The notes beneath the pieces were generated by a model that was not told where the DNA came from, made no database searches, and saw only the letters and a program-made list of their open reading frames with translations. A stretch of 64,000 bases of DNA, from IMG/VR virus record IMGVR_UViG_3300042483_000388, one strand, 5' to 3'. Of this stretch, positions 5,517 through 56,129 are shown one piece after another. The DNA comes from a virus (taxonomy: Duplodnaviria; Caudoviricetes). How positions within the stretch are numbered: position 1 is the stretch's first letter; each line of letters begins with the position of its first letter. The translations under genes and the position numbers were made by a program.

Positions 5517-6425
5517 ACAAATCGGAAACGTCCGATAACGTTCTTTGAAAATTTAGATATTATCCGTTCAGGATTAGGTTAAGAACCTTCGGGTTTAAGA
5601 GTGAAACTGATAAAGATATTGGGCCGTGTATAGTCCATAAAATAAACTACGAAAGTAGGATAAAGTGAATCCACAAGTGTAACGGGTTTGCGTCTTAATA
5701 GTCTTCGGAATATTGAGGTCGAGTACACAGGCGAGATACCATAAGATCTTTAGTACCGAGGCCAACGGTGTAGGGAAAGTGATTTTATGACGAGGTGATG
5801 TGGGTCATCTTGTTGAGGAGGGAACTCCAATAGGAATAACTCGTAGGGACGTTGCAAGAATCAATATTTCCAATGTTGTTATTGCGGGTTCCAGTATCAA
5901 AGGATACTTAAAACCGAAAGGTATGTTAATGTACGGGTGGTGCCGTTATTAACCTTAACCGACTTCTACCAAGGGGTTAGTTTCGAAGTAGTCTTGAAAT
6001 ATTGAAATGGGGACATTTCACGGAGTTGTTTGGTATTTTGTTATTCAAAAGATAATGAAGCTTAAGACGGACCACAACTTTGATCAATCCACAACACAAA
6101 AACTTTTATAGAAAAGGTAAAACTTATAACTAAAAAGCAAAAGTGTTCGTCACGATATAACGGAAGTTACCCACCTATTCACTGGCTGTCAGTGGAACGT
6201 GATAACCGCAAGTTTGACCGTATTTTTATGAAAAATCTCTAGGTCGTCGAAGACCGAACCAGGACGCAATCTTGGGGAGACAGGAGTAGTAAGAGAGTAG
6301 TTGTATCGTCAAGGGGTGATTGGTCTAACCAATCGGTAATGAGTGTTACGGGACAAAATCCTGTGGATAAGAGTAGAACCAATAATGACTCGAAAGACAC
6401 TTACAAAAACTGTAATCTCAGGTTT
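5517..6425 (+). ncRNA. large (~900 nt) structured non-coding RNA, GOLLD/ROOL-like
   Basis: No ORF of 60 aa or more; visibly G/C-richer than flanks; many GNRA/UUCG hairpins (5584-5595, 5647-5658, 5817-5828, 5913-5922, 6003-6020, 6178-6197, 6318-6334); own promoters; ends at U-tract; near tRNAs and tmRNA. Confidence 0.75.
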
Positions 6426-6650: not shown

Positions 6651-6681
6651 AAACGGAACCTACCTTTTGGTGGGTTTTTTT
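6651..6681 (+). terminator. intrinsic terminator
   Basis: AACCTACC-TTTT-GGTGGGTT followed by T-run. Confidence 0.7.
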
Positions 6682-6731: not shown

Positions 6732-6760
6732 TAAAAAAACCCCACCTGTGGAGATGGGGT
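6732..6760 (-). terminator. intrinsic terminator for tmRNA
   Basis: A-run then ACCCCA...TGGGGT hairpin on + strand, i.e. hairpin plus U-tract on - strand. Confidence 0.65.
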
Positions 6761-6769
6761 AATATAAGG

Positions 6770-7166
6770 TGGAGGTGCGGAGGCTCGAACTCCGGTCCAT
6801 AATATCCTGTCAGAGAAGGACTACACGTTTAGGTCAAGGTTTGTCATACCTTCCGAAATATCTGAGTTCTCACACCACTCAGCGACGGTGGTAGTTCTTA
6901 CGGGGAACCACGCCCGTTTTGTCCTCTTTTAGAGTGAAAACCAACTCATCAACGACTTCTGTTGCTAGGTTATCTGTCTGACCGACCCCCCGTTTCCGTA
7001 AACCTCTTAGGCTACAGTAACTTCAGAACCTCTTAGTAAACCAAGAGTTTCCATTTTCGATAAAACGTCGCCGATTGTTTTTGTGAATCAGTTTTTAAGG
7101 AGATTAATTCAGTCTCCACGTGCCCTTTGTCTTCAGCCAATACCTGTCAAATCCAAAAACACCCCC
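6770..7166 (-). ncRNA. ssrA: tmRNA
   Basis: 5' GGGGGTG..GGATTTGAC; 3' CGGAG-TTCGAGC-CTCCG-CACCTCC-A; G3.U70 Ala identity; tag ORF 7072..7007 encodes GDVLSKMETLGLLRGSEVTVA*. Confidence 0.93.
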
Positions 7167-7243
7167 ATATGTCAAATAACTTGTTATATTATAAATACAA
7201 ATATAATACAAAGATTTATATTATTCAATATATTTATAAAAAT

Positions 7244-8389
7244 ATGAGAAAAAGATTACTTATAGAAAACGATATTTCAGAGTTAGATGACTTTCAAAAG
7301 ATACTTCTTTTAAATAAACGAAAGATATCTCCTGACGAGGTTGAATTTTTTAATTCAGATGGTAAATCATATGACGAAATGGAGGTAAAATATGATGGTC
7401 TTTATTTTACTTTTGATGGTCTTGAGGAGTTTTTAAAGTTTTTCTTTCCTGGCACATATGGTGATGGTTCATATGATGAATATGAGGCTTCGAATCTTGA
7501 GCAAATGTATAATAGTCGATGGGATTTTGGTTTTGGTGATAGAGCATATGATGAGTGGAGAGATGGTTATATATTTGGGTATTTTTGCGAAAATAATATG
7601 AATTTATTATATGATGTCGTTAAACTTGTTTCACCTAAACTTATGTCTTGTTTTGTTAAAAATAATTCTGGGAAATTTATATTAAAAAGTGGTGATAATG
7701 AAAGTTGTTATAATAGTATGGTTGAGGTTCTTGACTCACTTCCTAACATATCCGATCAAATCCAATGGATATGGTCTGACGCTATGCAAGAGGCAAGTGA
7801 GGATGATGCATCTAATTATATTAAAGATAGATACTGTGATGGTTTAAATGGGGTTGGCATTAAAAGGTATTCTGATAGATATTGTTTTTGGAAATACAAT
7901 ATTAGTTGGGGTAATTTAGCGATGATGTTTATTAATACGGGTGAGTTTGATGGTAACTTAATTGATACTATGCATACATATATTGATAAAAATTTTAAAG
8001 ACCACACACCTGAATCCTATGCCTATGAGATTGCAGATTACGCTCATAATAGTGAAAAATTTAATGATTATTTTTGCGATAAAATTACCATTAGGTTAGA
8101 AGAATTAATTGAAAATTTGATGGAGGATTTTGATACTGAATATTTTGAGGTATTAACAAAAGTAATAGATATGGGCGGATTTGGTAATTTTTTACCAATG
8201 AAATCATATAATGATAAATACCAAATAAGACTCAATTCAATAGATCCTGATAATTTAAAAATTAAATATACCATTAAGTTAAAAAATTCTTGGGGTGAAG
8301 ACAAACAAGGAGAACTACCACTTAAAGATTTATTGAATCTCATCAACCAACCGGGATTATTTGACCCAATGGATTATAGAACTAGTTAG
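7244..8389 (+). CDS. hypothetical acidic protein (381 aa), possible virion protein
   Basis: Start at ATG 7244 after TATTTAT 7231-7237; the track extension overlaps tmRNA. Confidence 0.8.
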   Translation: MRKRLLIENDISELDDFQKILLLNKRKISPDEVEFFNSDGKSYDEMEVKYDGLYFTFDGLEEFLKFFFPGTYGDGSYDEYEASNLEQMYNSRWDFGFGDRAYDEWRDGYIFGYFCENNMNLLYDVVKLVSPKLMSCFVKNNSGKFILKSGDNESCYNSMVEVLDSLPNISDQIQWIWSDAMQEASEDDASNYIKDRYCDGLNGVGIKRYSDRYCFWKYNISWGNLAMMFINTGEFDGNLIDTMHTYIDKNFKDHTPESYAYEIADYAHNSEKFNDYFCDKITIRLEELIENLMEDFDTEYFEVLTKVIDMGGFGNFLPMKSYNDKYQIRLNSIDPDNLKIKYTIKLKNSWGEDKQGELPLKDLLNLINQPGLFDPMDYRTS

Positions 8390-9419
8390 ATCCGTATATC
8401 CTTTCTTGTAAAATTTCATAAAGTTTAAAACAATCGTCATTGTCAATAAACAATCCTGTTCCATCATAAACGTCCGATATCATAATTCCACATTCTTCCT
8501 CAAACACGTCAACTGAAACCAATGAATGGATCTTATCAATCTCACTTTCGACAATATCATCGTCCTCAAACTTATCATAAGTTGGATAAACAAATGGTTT
8601 ATATTCAAATCCGTATTTTTTAAGACCCAGATCTTTAACCAAGTTTTTGCCGGCCTCAATTGCTCGTACAACATCGTCAACACAAACAAACTCATTTGAT
8701 GTATGCATATTATAGTATCCACAAGAAATGTTAATACAAGAAAAATCGGACTTTTGTTTGATTTGCATGATATCCGTATAAGGGTGAGACTGAACCATCA
8801 TTTCATTTTTAAATGACTTTATAACTGATGGTAGAGCCAATTTAAAGAACTCTCCGTCAACGTCGAATAACTGTGTTCCTGAGCAAGATAATGATATCAA
8901 GTGGTCACCAGGCGCATCGTATTGGGCGCAATACCCAACATCCTTAAGGAAATCAACATTGCAGTTTCTTGATCCATGACAACCAGTTTCTTCTGACACA
9001 AAGAAGGCCACCTTTACTTTATCCAATTGTTTAAGCAATTCCAAACAGATAAAAATACCACATTTGTCGTCACCACCAATACCCGTTGGGTTTCCTTTTT
9101 CATTGTATGCCTTTAAACATGGGACAGGTTCTTTATCAAAAGTTTTTCCAAATGTGTTTGGTCTTGATAACATTTCTTCTTTAACGATAATTTCATCAAC
9201 AAGTTCGTGTACCGTATCTGTGTGGGAAATAAACATTGGATAGAATTCACCTTCATCTAACGTTCCTTTTGTTGCGTAGATATTATTGTGTTCATCACAA
9301 GTAAGGGTAACACCATCCATATCACTAATTGATGACATGATATACTCAACCATCTTAGTCTCTTCATAAGTTTTGGTTGGGACTGAAAGTAATTCTTTAA
9401 ATTTATCTATATTCATCAT
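8382..9419 (-). CDS. M20/M28/M42-clan Zn peptidase
   Basis: SHTDTVH, GGDDKCG, SEETG, YDAP, YYNMH; TATCTTTG on - strand at 9432-9439. Confidence 0.85.
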   Translation of the reverse strand: MMNIDKFKELLSVPTKTYEETKMVEYIMSSISDMDGVTLTCDEHNNIYATKGTLDEGEFYPMFISHTDTVHELVDEIIVKEEMLSRPNTFGKTFDKEPVPCLKAYNEKGNPTGIGGDDKCGIFICLELLKQLDKVKVAFFVSEETGCHGSRNCNVDFLKDVGYCAQYDAPGDHLISLSCSGTQLFDVDGEFFKLALPSVIKSFKNEMMVQSHPYTDIMQIKQKSDFSCINISCGYYNMHTSNEFVCVDDVVRAIEAGKNLVKDLGLKKYGFEYKPFVYPTYDKFEDDDIVESEIDKIHSLVSVDVFEEECGIMISDVYDGTGLFIDNDDCFKLYEILQERIYGSN

Positions 9420-11089: not shown

Positions 11090-13147
11090 CTATTCCTTCT
11101 TTTTTCTAACTCTTTTTGGTTTTTCCACAATAACCTCATCAACTTTATTACCAATTACTACGTTCTCATCAACAATCGTTAAATTGTAGTTCTCATCCTC
11201 ATTAATTTCAGACATTAAAATCTTCTCAGAAATTAAATCCTCAATCTTATCTTGGATTGCCCTTTTGATCGGTCTTGCTCCGAATGTTTCGTCAAACCCA
11301 ACTTTGGATATATAATCAATTAGTGATTGGTCGTAAGTAAAGTTGTATTTTTTACCCTCAACACGTTTTAACAATCTATCAATCTCCAACTTGGTAATAA
11401 CGTCAATGTGTTCTTTCTTAAGTGAGTTGAAGACAATAACGTCATCAATACGATTTAAGAATTCAGGGGCAAAAAACTTACTAAGTTCTTTTTTAAGGAT
11501 GTCTCTCTTTTGTTCTTCTTGTATAACATTACTTGAATTATTACTTTTAAATCCAACACCTGTGCCAAAGTCGTGTAGTTTTTTAACACCAATATTGGAG
11601 GTCATAATTATTAAACAATTCTTAAAGTTAATTTTTCTACCTAATGAGTCTGTTATATGTCCATCATCCAAAAGTTGTAATAATGTTGAGAATATATCTT
11701 TATGTGCTTTCTCAATTTCATCAAACAAAATAACCGAATATGGTTTGTTTTTAACTTGTTCTGTAAGTTGTCCACCATCTTCATGACCAACATATCCTGG
11801 AGGTGACCCAATCAAACGAGAAATTGTGTGTTTTTCTTGATATTCAGACATATCAATACGGATGAGATTATCGGGACTACCAAAGATTTCTTTTGCCAAT
11901 TGTTTTGCTAAGAATGTTTTACCGACACCTGTTGAACCTAAGAAGATAAATGAACCAATCGGTTTATTTGGATCTTTAATCCCAATTCTATTTCTACGAA
12001 TAGATTTTGTGATTTTCAAAACTGCCTCTTCTTGACCAATAACGATTGAGTTAAGGTTTTTATCTAAATTAATAAGTGAGTTTTTCTCATCTAAATTTAT
12101 GTTTGAAATTGGAATTTTGGTCATGTTGGAAACAACCTCATAGATTAATTCTTCCGGTATATTTCTTTTACTAATTTTAAGTTCTTCGTTAAACTTTTTC
12201 TTCTCAATTTCTAAATTAGTCAAAACATTTCTCTCTCTATCTCGAAGATTTGCGGCTTGCTCATAATCTTGACGCTTAATTACGTTAATTTTTTCCAATT
12301 TAATGTCGGAAGCTTTACGTTTTAAGTTTTCAATAATTTCGGGAAGTTTAATATCTATTTGCATTCTTGCCCCAACCTCATCCAATATATCAAACGCCTT
12401 ATCGGGAAACTCACGATCTGTGATATATCTATCGGCCAACTCAACAAATATCCGAAGAGTTTCATCACTGTAAATAACTTTATGATGGTCTTCGTATTTT
12501 GATTTACTTTGTTTAAGGATTTCAAATGTTTCTTCTTTGGTTGATGGATCAACGACGACTTTTTGAAATCTCCTCTCTAACGCACCATCTTTTTCGAAGT
12601 TAGTTCTATATTCATCCAAAGTAGTTGCTCCAATACATTGGATCTCACCACGAGATAAGGCTGGTTTAAATATGTTGGAGGCATCTAACGAACCTGAACT
12701 ATTTCCCGCACCTACAATAGTGTGAATTTCATCAATAAAAAGTATGATATTTGGACTATTTTGTAATTCCTCAATAATAACCTTCATTCTTTCTTCAAAC
12801 TGACCACGATATTTGGTGCCCGCAACAATTGAGTTCATATCCAACGATACGATTCTTTTATCTAATAAATTTTTTGGACATTCTCCGCCATGTATCATCA
12901 TTGCTAAACCTTCAACAATGGCTGTTTTACCACATCCAGGTTCACCAATTATAATTGGATTATTTTTCTTACGTCTTGAAAGAATCTGAGCAATCCTAAG
13001 GATTTCCTTTTGTCTACCAACAACTGGATCAAGTTTTCCTTCTTCCGCTAATTTATTTAAATCCTTACTAAAGTTATCAAGTACTGGTGTTCCGCTATCC
13101 GGCTTCTTTTTCCCATTATCTCCCTTATCATCTACAAAGTCTAACAT
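11090..13147 (-). CDS. clpC: ClpC-like Hsp100 AAA+ ATPase lacking the N-terminal domain
   Basis: Two NBDs (GEPGCGKT, GSTGVGKT), LFIDEIH/LFDEIEK Walker B, GYVG pore loop, UVR-like M domain, GVGF ClpP-docking loop. Confidence 0.92.
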   Translation of the reverse strand: MLDFVDDKGDNGKKKPDSGTPVLDNFSKDLNKLAEEGKLDPVVGRQKEILRIAQILSRRKKNNPIIIGEPGCGKTAIVEGLAMMIHGGECPKNLLDKRIVSLDMNSIVAGTKYRGQFEERMKVIIEELQNSPNIILFIDEIHTIVGAGNSSGSLDASNIFKPALSRGEIQCIGATTLDEYRTNFEKDGALERRFQKVVVDPSTKEETFEILKQSKSKYEDHHKVIYSDETLRIFVELADRYITDREFPDKAFDILDEVGARMQIDIKLPEIIENLKRKASDIKLEKINVIKRQDYEQAANLRDRERNVLTNLEIEKKKFNEELKISKRNIPEELIYEVVSNMTKIPISNINLDEKNSLINLDKNLNSIVIGQEEAVLKITKSIRRNRIGIKDPNKPIGSFIFLGSTGVGKTFLAKQLAKEIFGSPDNLIRIDMSEYQEKHTISRLIGSPPGYVGHEDGGQLTEQVKNKPYSVILFDEIEKAHKDIFSTLLQLLDDGHITDSLGRKINFKNCLIIMTSNIGVKKLHDFGTGVGFKSNNSSNVIQEEQKRDILKKELSKFFAPEFLNRIDDVIVFNSLKKEHIDVITKLEIDRLLKRVEGKKYNFTYDQSLIDYISKVGFDETFGARPIKRAIQDKIEDLISEKILMSEINEDENYNLTIVDENVVIGNKVDEVIVEKPKRVRKKKE

Positions 13148-13882: not shown

Positions 13883-14620
13883 ATGGATACTAAAAAACTA
13901 ATAAAAAGTTTTGATACTCAAGATGAATTAAATCCTAAGATTTGGCAATTACCAAATGGTCAGGATTATAAAATGAAGAATGAGATTAGGGAGAGGTTAT
14001 TAGAAATTGCTTACCAATTTATAGATTATTTGGGTGTTGATATTGTTGTAACCGATATTGTTCTTACGGGATCGTTAGCAAATTATAATTGGTCAAAGTA
14101 TTCCGATTTTGATGTTCATATAATTACCAATTTCCAACAATACCCACCAGAACAATTAGAGCTCTATAAGGAATTATTTATGTTAAAGAAAGCGCTATTC
14201 AATAAAAACTACGACATTAAACTTTTTGGTTATGAGGTTGAGTTATATGTTGAGAATGAATCTGAAGCTCATTTCTCAAGTGGTGTTTATTCCTTATTAT
14301 TTAATGAGTGGGCGATGAAACCAAAAAAAGAAAAAATATCAATTGATAAACCTACCATTGAAAGGAAGGCTAAACAATGGATGGGGATTATTGATGGTGT
14401 ATTAGAGAACATTGAAGATGAAGATATTGAGGACGCTAAGGACCTTATTGAGAAATATAAAGAAAAACTTAGGAAGTTTAGATCTTGTGGTTTAGAAAAA
14501 AATGGTGAGTATTCTTCAGAAAATCTAGTATTTAAAATCTTAAGAAGAAATGGATATCTTGAAAAACTAAGAGGTGCAACACATAAAATATTGGAAAAAG
14601 GTTTATCAATGAACCAATAA
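13883..14620 (+). CDS. Pol-beta-superfamily nucleotidyltransferase
   Basis: LTGSLANYNWSKYSDFDVH (GS...DxD); third acid near VELYVE; late motif 13872-13878. Confidence 0.85.
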   Translation: MDTKKLIKSFDTQDELNPKIWQLPNGQDYKMKNEIRERLLEIAYQFIDYLGVDIVVTDIVLTGSLANYNWSKYSDFDVHIITNFQQYPPEQLELYKELFMLKKALFNKNYDIKLFGYEVELYVENESEAHFSSGVYSLLFNEWAMKPKKEKISIDKPTIERKAKQWMGIIDGVLENIEDEDIEDAKDLIEKYKEKLRKFRSCGLEKNGEYSSENLVFKILRRNGYLEKLRGATHKILEKGLSMNQ

Positions 14621-14696: not shown

Positions 14697-16151
14697 ATGT
14701 CAGGATTAAGACCAATAGGTAGTGAAAAATTAGAAGGTATGGATAAAATTAGACGAATAATGGAAATTGCTCGTTATAATGAAAACACACCTGAATCAGT
14801 TAATGAAGGATCCTTAACAACATACAGTTTATCTTTGGCTGACGGTAACACATATGAAATCGTAAAAGAAAGATTAGGGTATATTGTTAAGTTATCGATA
14901 AACGAATCTGATGCGGATTATATTGAACCGATTCAGAATAGGAAGTATTACCCATCTTATTCGAGAGCATTAAAGAAATTAAATTTAATGGCTAAAGAGT
15001 TTAATACGATATATGAAAATGTAGAAGGGACCTCGTTATTTAACGAGCAAAAAAAAAAGTATATACTAAAGGTTCCTAAACCAAAAACAACGGATAATGA
15101 AATGCCCGCACCAGCGGATATTCCCCCTCCAGCACCGGCACCAGAAATGGGTGCTCCGGTAGATGTTCCACCTCCGGTATCCGGACCACCAATGGATGAA
15201 TCAGGAATGCCACCAATGGATGATGCGGGAATACCACCAATGGGTGATACAGGAATGCCACCAATGGGTGATGCAGGAATGCCACCAATGGACGATGCGG
15301 GAATGCCACCAATGGACGATGCGGGAATGCCACCAATGGATGGTGAAGATGAATTACCTGGTTTAGGGTCAGGTGAAGGTATGGATGATGATGAACCGAA
15401 AGATAAAAAAGTATCCGATATTAAAAGAATCCAAATACTCGTTGGAAAATTAGCCCAAAAAATAAGATCTTATGAGGAAGGAAAAGAACTTTCATCTAAA
15501 GATGTAAAATATGTTATTAACTCCATTTTATCTGCTATAGATGTTGATGTTCTAAGTGAAAAAGATATAGAACAAATTATTTCAAAACTAGAAGGTCCTG
15601 ACGATGAGGATGAAGATGGTGACGTTAATGTTGATATGGAAGATGAAGAAATGGCACCTGAAGAACCTGAAGGTGAGATGGGTGAGGGTTATAATAATTT
15701 AGAGTCAGCATTTAATGATTATATGGGAGCAGCATATGCTAATACCGCAATGAGAAAATCTCTTGGTCAAGAAATTGATGAAGAAGATGATGACGAATAC
15801 CACAGAGAAAGAAGAAAAGGAAGAAAACATTTAGTAAATCCACCACAATTCTCTAACGGAACATATAATGAGTCTTCAGTGGATAAGGTCCTTTCAAAAT
15901 ATTTTATATTATCTGAAAACGAAGAAAAAGATAATCAAAAAAAACAACAAGAAAGAGCTCAAAAACAATATAAAGACACTAAATTCCAAATAATAAGATT
16001 ATCGGAAAGTATTGACCAAATTGAAGCTGCAACTGAATACATTAAAGAATTCCCAAGATCTAAATTATTTGGAGTATCAAATAAAGGAAATCTTATTTTT
16101 AAACAAGGTATTAGTGAAGTTAAAATTACTAAATATGGTGATATCCTATGA
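14697..16151 (+). CDS. acidic Pro-rich protein with PPM repeats; probable prohead/internal protein
   Basis: 484 aa; multiple hydrophobic-x-E sites; late motif 14656-14662. Confidence 0.75.
   Translation: MSGLRPIGSEKLEGMDKIRRIMEIARYNENTPESVNEGSLTTYSLSLADGNTYEIVKERLGYIVKLSINESDADYIEPIQNRKYYPSYSRALKKLNLMAKEFNTIYENVEGTSLFNEQKKKYILKVPKPKTTDNEMPAPADIPPPAPAPEMGAPVDVPPPVSGPPMDESGMPPMDDAGIPPMGDTGMPPMGDAGMPPMDDAGMPPMDDAGMPPMDGEDELPGLGSGEGMDDDEPKDKKVSDIKRIQILVGKLAQKIRSYEEGKELSSKDVKYVINSILSAIDVDVLSEKDIEQIISKLEGPDDEDEDGDVNVDMEDEEMAPEEPEGEMGEGYNNLESAFNDYMGAAYANTAMRKSLGQEIDEEDDDEYHRERRKGRKHLVNPPQFSNGTYNESSVDKVLSKYFILSENEEKDNQKKQQERAQKQYKDTKFQIIRLSESIDQIEAATEYIKEFPRSKLFGVSNKGNLIFKQGISEVKITKYGDIL
15186..15341 (+). 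repeat. 24-nt in-frame tandem repeat (PPMDDAGM-like, 6 full copies + 1 partial)
   Basis: CCACCAATGG recurs every 24 nt from 15186 to 15330. Confidence 0.9.
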
Positions 16152-17354: not shown

Positions 17355-17408
17355 TTTTTTGGGTAAAGTCATTATTTCGTAAAAACCCCTACCAAGTATT
17401 TATATTAT

Positions 17409-21195: not shown

Positions 21196-21219
21196 TAATA
21201 TTTATATTAAAAACTAATT

Positions 21220-22652: not shown

Positions 22653-22673
22653 TATTTATATATAAAATAATAA

Positions 22674-25511: not shown

Positions 25512-27398
25512 ATGGGAGCATTATTAGAATCAGGTCTTGTTGGTAACATAGGGTTAAAACACCTTAAAGTTATCAAAGAAGACACTATTAACAAATGGAA
25601 CAAATTAGGGTTCCTTGATGGACTTAAAGGTCATCTAAAAGAAAATATGGCTCAATTATATGAGAATCAAGCGTCACATTTGATTAACGAAGCAACTGGA
25701 GAAGGTTCTAACGGAGCATTTGAAACTGTTGTTTTCCCAATCGTAAGACGTGTATTCTCTAAATTGTTAGCTAACGACATCGTATCAGTACAAGCAATGA
25801 ACTTACCTATCGGTAAATTGTTCTACTTCGTACCTAAAATCCAAGGATATCAAAATGAATATCAAGGACCAGATGCGACAGGTGGTATTCATTATCCTCC
25901 AGTTGGAGCACCAAATGGACCTGCTAATGGAGCTGGATATGAGCCAACAGGACCATACGCTTACAAGAAAAACCTTTATGATTTATTCTACGAAGGAAAT
26001 GAGGCAGGAATGGATCCACAAGGATTATTTGACTACTCTAAAGGTAAGTGGACCGCAGTTACTGCAACTACAACAATCCAAGCATGGGCTGGTTCAGCAC
26101 TTGTTAACGCAACTATCAACGGAGGTACTCCTGCAGGTGGAACACAAATTCCAGCAGGTAACATAAGAAAAGTTCTTATGAAAATGTGTGGTTTCGCAAA
26201 TTCAGGAGCTGGTAAATTAATCGGACCTGATGGTAACGAAATGGATAGTGAGGCATTTTTGTCTGACTTGAGAATATTCGCATCAACAGGATTATCCGCA
26301 TCTACTACACCTTGTGACGTTCTTAAAAACAGTGCAGGACAATACATTCCTTTATTATTTAGATGTGTTACTCAAATATACGGTAAAGGTCTTGTTAAAT
26401 ATGGTGGTCAACAATCAACAACATTTGCAAACACTAGTACTCAACCTAACGACGCAGGTAATGGTGGTTCTTACTACGATATCTGTGACTCAGATGGTTG
26501 TATCTATTTAGAAGTAGATTTATCTTGTCCAGTATGTGCTGATTGTGACTCAACATCTTTAGATGGTTACACAGGTACTACAATATACTCAGGTGGATCT
26601 GGAACTTCATTTACTGCATTCTTTAGACGATATGCTAACTTAGAATTTGAAGACGAAATTGGTGAGGTTTCTTTTGATTTAGAATCAGTAACTGTTTCTG
26701 TAACTGAAAGAAAACTAAGAGCACAATGGTCTCCTGAATTAGCTCAAGACGTTGCGGCATTCCACAACATCGACGCTGAAGCTGAATTAACAGCATTGTT
26801 ATCTGAACAAGTAGCAGCTGAAATCGACCGTGAGATCCTTCGTGACTTACGTAAAGGTGCGGCATGGAACTTACGTTGGGATTACAACGGATGGAGAAGA
26901 ATTTCTCAAACAACATCTTACACTCAGAAAGACTGGAACCAAACATTAATTACAGCAATCAATCAGTTGTCTGCACAAATTCACAAATCAACTTTGAGAG
27001 GTGGTGCTAACTGGATCGTTGTTTCTTCTGAGGTTTCTGCTATCTTTGACGATTTAGAATACTTCCACGTATCTAACGCGGCTCCTGAGCAAGATCAGTA
27101 TAACATGGGTATTGAAAGAGTTGGTACTCTTGCAGGACGTTACCAAGTTTATCGTGATCCTTACTTCCCAGCAAACCAAGTTTTGATTGGACACAAAGGA
27201 ACATCATTGTTAGACACAGGTTACATCTACGCACCGTATGTACCATTACAATTAACACCTACAATGTACAATCCGTTCAACTTTACTCCGATCAAAGGAA
27301 TAATGACGAGATACGCGAAAAAAATGGTAAATAATCGCTTTTACGGGAGAATTACCGTAGATGGTGTTCGTACATTCGATTTAAGAGAATTGAGATAA
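25512..27398 (+). CDS. major capsid protein (T4 gp23-like)
   Basis: VSVQAMNLPIGKLFY, RKLRAQWSPELAQD, AEIDREI, YAPYVPL, GIMTRYA. Confidence 0.96.
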   Translation: MGALLESGLVGNIGLKHLKVIKEDTINKWNKLGFLDGLKGHLKENMAQLYENQASHLINEATGEGSNGAFETVVFPIVRRVFSKLLANDIVSVQAMNLPIGKLFYFVPKIQGYQNEYQGPDATGGIHYPPVGAPNGPANGAGYEPTGPYAYKKNLYDLFYEGNEAGMDPQGLFDYSKGKWTAVTATTTIQAWAGSALVNATINGGTPAGGTQIPAGNIRKVLMKMCGFANSGAGKLIGPDGNEMDSEAFLSDLRIFASTGLSASTTPCDVLKNSAGQYIPLLFRCVTQIYGKGLVKYGGQQSTTFANTSTQPNDAGNGGSYYDICDSDGCIYLEVDLSCPVCADCDSTSLDGYTGTTIYSGGSGTSFTAFFRRYANLEFEDEIGEVSFDLESVTVSVTERKLRAQWSPELAQDVAAFHNIDAEAELTALLSEQVAAEIDREILRDLRKGAAWNLRWDYNGWRRISQTTSYTQKDWNQTLITAINQLSAQIHKSTLRGGANWIVVSSEVSAIFDDLEYFHVSNAAPEQDQYNMGIERVGTLAGRYQVYRDPYFPANQVLIGHKGTSLLDTGYIYAPYVPLQLTPTMYNPFNFTPIKGIMTRYAKKMVNNRFYGRITVDGVRTFDLRELR

Positions 27399-28385: not shown

Positions 28386-28419
28386 TTTATTTTTTCTTTA
28401 TATTTATATAATATAACAT

Positions 28420-56075: not shown

Positions 56076-56129
56076 AAAATTAGTTTTTACAATAAATACT
56101 TTGATATGTTGTATTTATAATTAAAACAA

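What the first reader, a model, noticed from the sequence alone, without database searches (positions are those of the whole stretch)
7007..7072. Phage tmRNA with a rewired 21-aa tag (GDVLSKMETLGLLRGSEVTVA)
Seen: an intact tRNA-Ala-like domain and a tag frame that resumes at GGC after ACAATC. The tag is 21 aa and ends in VTVA. Both a late motif (ATAAATA 7191-7197) and a TATATTTG element (7198-7205) lie upstream on the minus strand. Known: Bacteroidota tags are short, begin with Gly and end in YALAA, which is read by host ClpXP/Tsp. Inference: the phage tag changes the fate of rescued proteins, either avoiding host proteolysis or routing them to the phage ClpC encoded 4 kb away.
Basis: partly seen in the sequence, partly recalled or inferred. 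Interest (0 to 1): 0.75.

Follow-up and report, generated by a model that had tools for sequence, protein, structure and literature searches.

The report
Phage tmRNA with long conserved tag
A ~300-kb lake phage carries its own ribosome-rescue RNA (tmRNA) that adds a 21-residue tail, twice as long as and unlike its likely Bacteroidota host's tag; more than 100 related phages keep this tail, always near a phage ClpC-type unfoldase, but what the tail does is untested.

Summary
Window 6767-7166 (minus strand) is a complete one-piece tmRNA (Rfam 97 bits, gathering score 47), although ARAGORN does not call it. It has its own promoter box and terminator.

The 21-codon frame GGC...GCC TAA (7072-7007) is real. 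All 114 related phage tmRNAs from IMG/VR have a 21-22 codon frame at this place (38 distinct peptides). The frame shows coding-type substitution, the other two frames carry stops, and the stop codon sits in a helix-5 hairpin.

The tRNA-like domain pairs in 60 of 60 unique sequences, with G3.U70 invariant and compensatory changes. Bacteroidota tmRNAs fetched here share the resume context but encode 9-residue GENNYALAA-type tags.

The window is a T4-like jumbo phage from lakes. Four near-complete relatives lack SmpB. All have an N-domain-less ClpC, usually in the order ClpC, PepT-like peptidase, tmRNA. ClpP is in one of the four and in one fragmentary contig.

Known phage tmRNAs already carry odd tags, such as 25 aa in Bxz1.

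This scan has noted the same kind of tmRNA on other DNA, in at least 18 genomes.

The parts
6767..7166 (-). tmRNA (ssrA) gene, 400 nt, one-piece
   Evidence: Rfam RF00023 at 97 bits over the full model. Relatives score 96-118 bits.
7160..7166 (-). 5' strand of the acceptor stem (GGGGGUG), with G3 of the G3.U70 alanine identity pair
   Evidence: All 7 pairs form in 60 of 60 unique relatives. G.U at pair 3 is invariant. Pairs 4 and 6 show compensatory changes.
6768..6794 (-). T arm (6778-6794), 3' strand of the acceptor stem (6771-6777), discriminator A (6770), CC (6768-6769). The next base is T, so the terminal A of CCA is not encoded here.
   Evidence: The T arm pairs in 60 of 60 with several compensatory pair types. 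Most relatives encode ACCA.
7084..7117 (-). Pseudoknot 1 (GGAGA/UCUCC crossing UGAAUUA/UGAUUCA)
   Evidence: The Rfam alignment. Close relatives show a G-C to A-U exchange in GGAGA/UCUCC. Counts across the wide family are blurred by the alignment.
7070..7072 (-). Resume codon GGC (Gly)
   Evidence: Same context and spacing as in Bacteroidota tmRNAs: GATTCAC, 10 nt, then GGC in Weeksellaceae L119. Gly1 is invariant in 38 tags while the codon before it varies.
7007..7072 (-). Tag reading frame: 21 codons (GDVLSKMETLGLLRGSEVTVA) plus TAA
   Evidence: 114 of 114 relatives have 21-22 codons here, with coding-type substitution and stops in the other frames.
6992..7021 (-). Helix 5 (GUUACUGUA / UACGGAAAC) with the stop codon at its tip
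   Evidence: The stop codon is enclosed by a hairpin of at least 4 bp in 60 of 63 distinct variants, and the stem sequences differ between sub-groups. Rfam had placed helix 5 on an inner hairpin that is not conserved.
7190..7228 (-). Promoter region: TTGAAU, 17 nt, UAUAUU, with UAUAUUUG (7198-7205), the Bacteroidota -7 box TAnnTTTG. TATTTATA (7190-7197) follows it.
   Evidence: (promoter-like site). TAnnTTTG lies within 60 nt upstream in 58 of 68 distinct relatives, against 4.6% of control windows. TATTTAT is present in only 36 of 68.
6739..6760 (-). Intrinsic terminator, starting 6 nt after the tmRNA 3' end
   Evidence: 9-bp stem followed by a T run. Relatives have hairpins of different sequence at the same place.
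11090..13147 (-). ClpC-type double AAA+ unfoldase, 685 aa, without N-domain and with a GVGF loop
   Evidence: Pfam AAA_2, AAA, AAA_lid_9, ClpB_D2-small and UVR. It aligns to S. aureus ClpC from residue 151 on (E 1e-209), and VGF aligns to the ClpP-docking loop. It is present in 22 of 22 and 46 of 50 related contigs.
8382..9419 (-). PepT/M20-M42-like metallopeptidase lying between ClpC and the tmRNA
   Evidence: Weak Pfam M42 and M20 hits and NCBIfam PepT-like hits. It is directly next to ClpC in G048, G065, G066 and G067.

Best explanation
This is a working ssrA gene of a T4-like jumbo phage (~300 kb) of lake bacteria, most likely Bacteroidota. It descends from a Bacteroidota-type tmRNA. It is transcribed as its own unit from a host-type promoter (TAnnTTTG box) to an intrinsic terminator, and is then trimmed at both ends. 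In this window the terminal A of CCA must be added. Host AlaRS charges it with alanine (G3.U70). It uses host SmpB, because the phage has none. On a stalled ribosome, translation resumes at GGC and runs for 21 codons to a UAA held in the helix-5 loop. Rescued chains therefore end in Ala plus GDVLSKMETLGLLRGSEVTVA. Shown: the gene, its structure, the reading frame, purifying selection on the peptide, the absence of SmpB, the gene neighbourhood, and its presence in lake RNA libraries. Inferred: the phage keeps ribosome rescue running through a long infection and marks the rescued fragments with a clade-specific C-terminal degron. The apolar V-x-V-A end looks like a classical ssrA end. The 12 or so extra conserved residues (Lys6, Gly11-Leu12, Arg14, Glu17) imply a reader that sees more than the last three residues. 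The phage's adaptor-less ClpC is the leading single candidate and host ClpXP is the other.
For: Rfam scores 97 bits over the full model. At least 120 IMG/VR contigs hold the family. All 114 extracted tmRNAs have a 21-22 codon tag, with 38 distinct peptides and 54 distinct DNAs. Entropy by codon position runs 3 > 1 > 2, the synonymous to non-synonymous ratio is 0.55 against 0.18 and 0.04 in the other frames, and those frames carry stops. Acceptor stem and T arm pair in 60 of 60 with covariation, and G3.U70 is invariant. The stop codon lies in a hairpin in 60 of 63 variants. The resume context matches Bacteroidota tmRNAs, which encode GENNYALAA-type tags. One sub-group tag, GETFAKLQTLGLIRTEEVYAA, keeps a host-like start and end. 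The TAnnTTTG box is present in 58 of 68 upstream regions against 4.6% of controls, and there is a terminator. SmpB is found in 0 of 22 contigs and 0 of 4 near-complete genomes. Terminase, portal and a T4-type capsid protein are in the window. Fourteen metatranscriptome runs from 14 studies hold 44-69% of the tmRNA's words. The family's 18-mer is absent from 185,579 species genomes apart from one chance hit.
Against: There is no direct evidence of charging, tagging or degradation. Expression rests on word matches in assembled RNA runs, and I could not lay reads, so DNA carry-over is not excluded. The host is inferred, not shown. The resume codon rests on homology and on where conservation begins. 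The codons GUU ACU GUA also form one strand of helix 5, so part of the conservation of 'VTV' may be RNA constraint. ARAGORN rejects the window's gene.
Confidence: 0.8

Rival explanations
1. Private tag-and-destroy module. The 22-residue tail is read by the phage's N-domain-less ClpC, which docks through its VGF loop on host ClpP, or on phage ClpP where one is present. The neighbouring PepT-like peptidase then finishes the peptides, recycling amino acids during infection.
For: ClpC-like is present in 22 of 22 and 46 of 50 contigs and in 4 of 4 near-complete genomes. The order ClpC, peptidase, tmRNA on one strand, within 2-6 kb, is kept down to 56-61% ClpC identity, while GOLLD lies more than 150 kb away in those genomes. 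The VGF loop is present and the N-domain absent, so there is no MecA/McsB-type adaptor docking. No Lon, S41, SspB, ClpS or MecA was found in the phage genomes. True ClpP genes occur in G011 and G048. Inference: an adaptor-less unfoldase needs a longer tail to engage, which would fit the length of the tag.
Against: All this evidence comes from one clade, where synteny is inherited. ClpP is missing from 3 of 4 near-complete genomes and from the window. A huge phage with a 58%-identical ClpC has no tmRNA. An earlier follow-up on a marine phage group found that ClpC-tmRNA adjacency held only in a sub-group (e1-4433704, not checked here). No binding test was possible, because the tag is shorter than complex prediction accepts.
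Confidence: 0.3
2. Ordinary ssrA degron read by host proteases (ClpXP, ClpAP, Tsp, Lon or FtsH). The phage supplies extra tmRNA only to keep rescue going. The longer tag serves a host adaptor or tunes the rate.
For: The C-terminus is apolar and ends in Ala in 33 of 34 of the 21-residue tags, with Val at -1 and -3. From my own knowledge (Andersen et al. 1998, recalled), LVA-ending ssrA variants are degraded quickly by ClpXP. The phage depends on host SmpB anyway. Most relatives lack ClpP.
Against: ClpX needs only the last residues, which does not explain strict conservation of Lys6, Gly11, Leu12, Arg14 and Glu17 over 38 variants. The phage lineage gave up a host tag that would have served this purpose.
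Confidence: 0.3
3. Rescue without destruction. The tag shields rescued chains from host proteases, or directs them somewhere other than a protease.
For: The tag differs from the host's throughout.
Against: The apolar V-x-V-A-COOH end is the kind of end that Clp and Tsp proteases read. No targeting partner is evident. A tag that merely avoids recognition need not be conserved at 10 or more positions.
Confidence: 0.1
4. Not a translated tmRNA: either a relic of integration into host ssrA, or a decoy that only titrates SmpB.
For: Phage TLD-only molecules exist (DS6A, PMC4131195). A 112-nt TLD-only match occurs in huge phage LR756508.1.
Against: The gene is full length, with its own promoter and terminator, a conserved reading frame with synonymous changes, and helix 5 around the stop codon.
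Confidence: 0.03

Closest known systems
Bacteroidota one-piece tmRNA (SsrA) with tag (A)GENNYALAA
   Same: 5' end GGGG..UGGAUUUGACAG. The GGGCACG/ACGUG segment of helix 2. GATTCAC, 10 nt, then GGC resume codon. 71% identity over the first 104 nt to a Weeksellaceae tmRNA. One-piece layout. A TAnnTTTG promoter box.
   Different: The tag has 21-22 codons instead of 9, with its own consensus G-N/D-V-L-x-K-M-x-x-h-G-L-h-R-x-x-E-V-T-V-A. The T arm and PK2-PK4 differ. The family is found only on viral contigs, not in 185,579 species genomes.
Known phage tmRNAs: mycobacteriophage Bxz1 group, Bacillus phage G, huge phages (PMC4131195, PMC7162821, PMC9004378)
   Same: A complete ssrA on a large lytic phage next to tRNA genes. 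The tags are not host-like: ARAGORN gives 25 aa for Bxz1 and 13 aa ending QVA for phage G. Huge phage LR756508.1 has a 36-codon frame after a Bacteroidota-type resume context.
   Different: Different hosts and no sequence relation between the tags. Here the tag is shown to be conserved as a peptide across more than 100 phages, and the gene lies in a conserved ClpC-peptidase-tmRNA arrangement. Most of this family escapes ARAGORN, the tool those surveys used.
Mycoplasma/Mesoplasma ssrA tag read by Lon
   Same: A tag much longer than the usual one. The length goes with a change of the protease that reads it (PMC9382460).
ClpC of Firmicutes and Actinobacteria (S. aureus 6em8, B. subtilis ClpC/MecB, M. 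tuberculosis ClpC1)
   Same: Two AAA+ modules, a short coiled-coil M-domain (UVR), a D2-small domain and a VGF-type ClpP loop. E 1e-209 to 6em8.
   Different: The N-terminal domain of about 150 residues, which binds MecA, McsB-phosphoarginine and ClpS-type adaptors, is absent in the whole phage clade (open frames of 671-712 aa, except in G060 and G066, where the gene appears split).

Membership tests
tmRNA (Rfam RF00023, one-piece SsrA) | Covariance-model score above the curated gathering score, over the whole model | tested here: met
   97 bits against 47, model positions 1-374.
tmRNA (Rfam RF00023, one-piece SsrA) | tRNA-Ala-like domain: 7-bp acceptor stem, G3.U70, T arm, discriminator A and CCA | tested here: met
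   All pairs form in 60 of 60 unique relatives, G.U is invariant, and there are compensatory changes. The window encodes ACC-T and most relatives ACCA.
tmRNA (Rfam RF00023, one-piece SsrA) | Pseudoknot 1 shortly upstream of the resume codon | tested here: met
   The Rfam alignment. GGAGA/UCUCC changes to AGAGA/UCUCU in close relatives. Counts over the wide family are inconclusive because of the alignment.
tmRNA (Rfam RF00023, one-piece SsrA) | Short reading frame without a start codon, ending at a stop codon in the helix-5 loop | tested here: met
   21 codons with coding-type substitution. The stop codon is enclosed in a hairpin in 60 of 63 variants.
tmRNA (Rfam RF00023, one-piece SsrA) | Tag ends in the apolar, Ala-rich degron (..ALAA/..LAA) | tested here: inconclusive
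   It ends V-T-V-A. The terminal Ala is kept in 33 of 34 of the 21-residue tags, but residue -1 is Val rather than Ala. One sub-group ends VYAA.
tmRNA (Rfam RF00023, one-piece SsrA) | Works with SmpB, is charged by AlaRS, and tags nascent chains | not testable with these tools
   No SmpB in 22 contigs or in 4 near-complete genomes, so host SmpB would be needed.
Bacteroidota-type tmRNA | GGC resume codon in an A-rich context, and a 9-residue G-E/N-x-x-Y-A-L/M/F-A-A tag | tested here: not met
   The resume codon and its context are met, but the tag is not: 21 residues with a different consensus.
ClpC (class I AAA+ unfoldase partner of ClpP) | Two AAA+ modules, M-domain, ClpP-docking loop, and an N-terminal Clp_N repeat domain | tested here: not met
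   The modules, the UVR/M-domain and the VGF loop are present. The N-domain is absent, since the alignment starts at residue 151 of S. aureus ClpC. It works like a ClpC core but is not a full-architecture member.

The most novel reading that the evidence does not exclude
A widespread clade of lake jumbo phages runs a trans-translation and proteolysis circuit that is orthogonal to the host's. Its own tmRNA writes a 22-residue degron that host ClpXP reads poorly. The phage's adaptor-less ClpC engages that tail directly, and ClpP plus a PepT-like peptidase turn stalled or truncated (perhaps mainly host) proteins into amino acids for phage synthesis.
Probability: 0.25. Interest if true: 0.75.

Novelty: new variant of a known kind. 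Interest (0 to 1): 0.5.

Why it matters
Why phages carry tmRNAs is an open question, and nobody has tested what their odd tags do. Here the tag is clearly selected as a peptide across more than 100 phages: 38 variants with one consensus. It also sits in a conserved arrangement with an unfoldase and a peptidase. That gives a concrete, cheap experiment: reporters carrying the tag, tested with host ClpXP against phage ClpC plus ClpP. If the tag has its own reader, it would also be a new orthogonal degron and protease pair for Bacteroidota genetics. In practical terms, ARAGORN misses or misreads most of this family (89 of 114 not called, and the right tag in only 8). Published counts of phage tmRNAs that rely on ARAGORN are therefore underestimates.

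Tried and rejected
- **ARAGORN on the window.** Rfam and comparative data replace it.
- **Alternative frames.** The +1 frame (ATFYRKWKLLVY) has a typical length and ends in the inner hairpin that Rfam took for helix 5. I rejected it because that frame stops after 2-3 codons in some relatives (AMC*, ATY*) and carries an internal stop in 47 of 47 variants.
- **Inner hairpin and direct repeat.** The hairpin CTCTTGG/CTAAGAG and the 10-nt direct repeat CTAAGAGGTT are confined to the window's sub-group. They therefore give no evidence that the long tag arose by internal duplication.
- **Relatives of the neighbouring ORF.** The search for related loci with the neighbouring 381-aa ORF found nothing.
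- **Mis-spaced helix-5 pattern.** One pattern had the wrong spacing and found nothing.
- **TLD 26-mer in genomes.** It hit 68 contigs, mostly Chloroflexota. Only those 26 nt match and ARAGORN sees no tmRNA there, so this says nothing about the host.
- **Family 18-mer in genomes.** It hit only a Pyrobaculum MAG contig with no tmRNA around it, a chance match.
- **MecA-like adaptor.** The weak hit (E 0.006) of ORF 14697-16151 did not hold up: there is no MecA in five relatives. There is also no UVR adaptor next to ClpC in this window.
- **RNAalifold on the tag and helix-5 region.** It gave no consensus because of indels, so I folded each sequence on its own instead.
- **Complex prediction.** Not used, because the tag is shorter than the 30 residues the tool needs.
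- **Phylum-wide BLAST for the nearest host tmRNA.** Not pursued, because BLAST sees only the first 24 nt.

Full report
**Observation**

Rfam's tmRNA model matches window 7166-6767 on the minus strand over its whole length (97 bits, gathering score 47, E 1.4e-36). The sequence shows several features directly:
- a 7-bp acceptor stem, GGGGGUG paired with CACCUCC, with G3.U70;
- a canonical T arm;
- discriminator A followed by CC;
- the frame GGC GAC GUU ... GUA GCC UAA after ACAAUC.

That frame is GDVLSKMETLGLLRGSEVTVA, at exactly 7072-7007 as reported. ARAGORN does not call the gene, even at 80% thresholds. The window belongs to a tailed phage: it holds a large terminase, a portal and a T4-type major head protein. 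Six tRNA genes and a GOLLD RNA lie nearby.

**Is the tag frame more than chance?**

On its own it is not, because 21 open codons are common in AT-rich DNA. The comparative data settle it.
- A 26-nt 3'-end pattern found 22 IMG/VR contigs. The 19 that I scanned all hold a full tmRNA scoring 96-107 bits.
- From these I extracted 114 tmRNAs. Every one has a 21-codon frame (or 22 codons in four of the 38 tag types) starting at GGC or GGA at the same place. They give 38 distinct peptides and 54 distinct DNAs.
- Nucleotide variability runs codon position 3 > 1 > 2.
- The ratio of synonymous to non-synonymous codon differences is 0.55 in this frame, against 0.18 and 0.04 in the two others.
- The other frames contain stops in 47 of 47 and 43 of 47 variants.

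The consensus is G-N/D/E-V-L-x-K-M/L-x-x-h-G-L-h-R-x-x-E-V-T-V-A. Gly1 and Gly11 are invariant. Lys6, Leu12, Arg14, Glu17, Val18, Val20 and Ala21 are nearly so.

The +1 frame, which has a typical tag length, stops after two or three codons in some relatives. The stop codon lies at the tip of a hairpin in 60 of 63 distinct variants, and the stem sequences differ between sub-groups. This is helix 5. Rfam had aligned helix 5 to an inner hairpin that is not conserved.

**Is it a functional tmRNA?**

Across 60 unique full-length sequences all seven acceptor pairs and all five T-arm pairs form in every sequence. G3.U70 is invariant. There are compensatory changes at acceptor pairs 4 and 6 and at three T-arm pairs.

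The gene is its own transcription unit.
- A TAnnTTTG box (TATATTTG, 7198-7205), which is the Bacteroidota -7 element, lies within 60 nt upstream in 58 of 68 distinct relatives, against 4.6% of control windows.
- A terminator hairpin starts 6 nt after the 3' end. Relatives have hairpins of different sequence at the same place.
- The motif given as 'ATAAATA 7191-7197' is TATAAATA on the plus strand. In the tmRNA's sense it reads TATTTATA, the orientation in which it also precedes many ORF starts. It is present in only 36 of 68 relatives, so it is the less conserved of the two elements.

Lake-water metagenomes from many studies hold the locus. Fourteen metatranscriptome runs from 14 studies hold 44-69% of the tmRNA's words. 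Expression is therefore supported but not proven.

**Origin and host**

A 5'-end pattern fetched bacterial tmRNAs. ARAGORN reads GENNYALAA, GENTYALAA, GEQEYAFAA or GNNDYAMAA in Pedobacter, Weeksellaceae, Flavobacteriaceae and Blattabacterium. The Bacteroidota tmRNAs that ARAGORN missed give the same type by hand.

The phage RNA shares with them the 5' end, a helix-2 segment, and GATTCAC followed by 10 nt and then GGC. It is 71% identical to a Weeksellaceae tmRNA over the first 104 nt. One phage sub-group has the tag GETFAKLQTLGLIRTEEVYAA, with a host-like start and end. This suggests that the long tag grew by insertion into a host-type tag; that is an inference.

The nearest isolated phages by capsid protein infect Microcystis, Flavobacterium and Rhodothermus, at 35-42% identity. 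The family's 18-mer is absent from 185,579 species genomes apart from one chance hit. It is therefore a phage lineage of tmRNA, not a recent capture.

**Surroundings and the ClpC idea**

ORF 11090-13147 is a ClpC-type unfoldase. It aligns to S. aureus ClpC from residue 151 onward (E 1e-209). It thus lacks the adaptor-binding N-domain, and its GVGF aligns with the ClpP-docking loop.

| Gene or element | Result in relatives |
|---|---|
| ClpC-like | 22 of 22 close contigs; 46 of 50 more distant ones (the four misses are fragments of 4.6-16 kb); 4 of 4 near-complete genomes of 281-304 kb |
| Order ClpC, PepT/M20-like peptidase, tmRNA | on one strand within 2-6 kb in G048, G065, G066 and G067, at 56-61% ClpC identity |
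| GOLLD | beside the tmRNA only in the window's sub-group and in G064; more than 150 kb away in the others |
| SmpB | 0 of 22 contigs; 0 of 4 near-complete genomes |
| Lon, S41, MecA, SspB, ClpS | not found |
| ClpP (true, 190 bits) | only in G011 and G048; none in the window |

This makes the phage ClpC the obvious candidate reader of the tag. The evidence, however, is synteny within one clade. A huge phage with a 58%-identical ClpC has no tmRNA.

**What is known**

Phage tmRNAs have been described in the Bxz1 group, in phage G, in a TLD-only form in DS6A (PMC4131195), in huge phages (PMC7162821), and in 2.3% of isolate genomes by ARAGORN (PMC9004378). Their tags are already odd: ARAGORN gives 25 residues for Bxz1 and 13 ending QVA for phage G. 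Huge phage LR756508.1 has a 36-codon frame after a Bacteroidota-type resume context.

The best functional precedent for a long tag that goes with a different reader is the Mycoplasma/Mesoplasma tag read by Lon (PMC9382460). From my own knowledge, ssrA variants ending in LVA are still degraded quickly by ClpXP. An end in V-T-V-A is therefore no evidence of escape from host proteolysis.

**Verdict**

This is a large, ARAGORN-evading family of phage tmRNAs with a peptide-level conserved tag of 21-22 residues, unlike the 9-residue tag of the likely host phylum. It sits in a conserved arrangement with an N-domain-less ClpC and a peptidase.

The mechanism of rescue is standard and depends on host SmpB and AlaRS. 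The fate of the tagged proteins is open. I put about 0.3 on the phage ClpC route, 0.3 on ordinary host proteolysis and 0.1 on rescue without degradation.

First-stage notes of this scan report the same kind of tmRNA in at least 18 other genomes. I treated those notes as leads only.

Noticed in passing
window 6021-6424 (+), probably extending from about 5520: GOLLD RNA (RF02032, 287 bits), convergent with the tmRNA. The two terminators stand back to back at 6655-6678 (+) and 6739-6760 (-). GOLLD is present in 5 of 5 large relatives but lies next to the tmRNA only in the window's sub-group and in G064.
   Followed up: partly
L027 (G011:37031-37555) and L272 (G048:275850-276377): True ClpP genes (190-191 bits, GMAASMG serine motif) in two relatives only. 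The window and three near-complete genomes have none. G011's tag ends VTVS.
   Followed up: partly
L284 (LR756508.1:414804-414915) and L282 (LR756508.1:92434-92880): A 484-kb uncultured phage with the best capsid match has a 447-nt tmRNA with a 36-codon frame after CTATAACT|GGC. It also has a separate 112-nt tRNA-like-domain-only match (58 bits), like the DS6A mini-tmRNA.
   Followed up: partly
window, e.g. 17397-17404, 21199-21206, 22653-22660, 28401-28408, 56112-56119: TATTTATA (read in the sense of the gene) lies about 5-15 nt before the start codons of many ORFs, including the terminase. That is too close to be a T4-style -10 element with a leader. The overall count is not enriched (21 against 14.3 expected).
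   Followed up: partly
alignment A1, columns about 213-335 (tmRNA positions about 212-330): The PK2-PK4 region is mosaic. Otherwise near-identical tmRNAs carry unrelated blocks there, which suggests recombination between phage tmRNAs.
   Followed up: no
window 6767: The window encodes ACC-T where most relatives encode ACCA, so the terminal A must be added after transcription. A Pol-beta-type nucleotidyltransferase gene lies at 13883-14620.
   Followed up: no
window 25512-27398 (+): The T4 gp23-type major head protein matches relatives in two pieces, covering about 50% of the query. It seems to carry a large insertion or extension.
   Followed up: no
L098, L106, L129, L122, L139 (Chitinophagales, Flavobacteriales, Marinilabiliaceae): ARAGORN also misses several ordinary Bacteroidota tmRNAs that Rfam scores at 107-131 bits.
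   Followed up: partly
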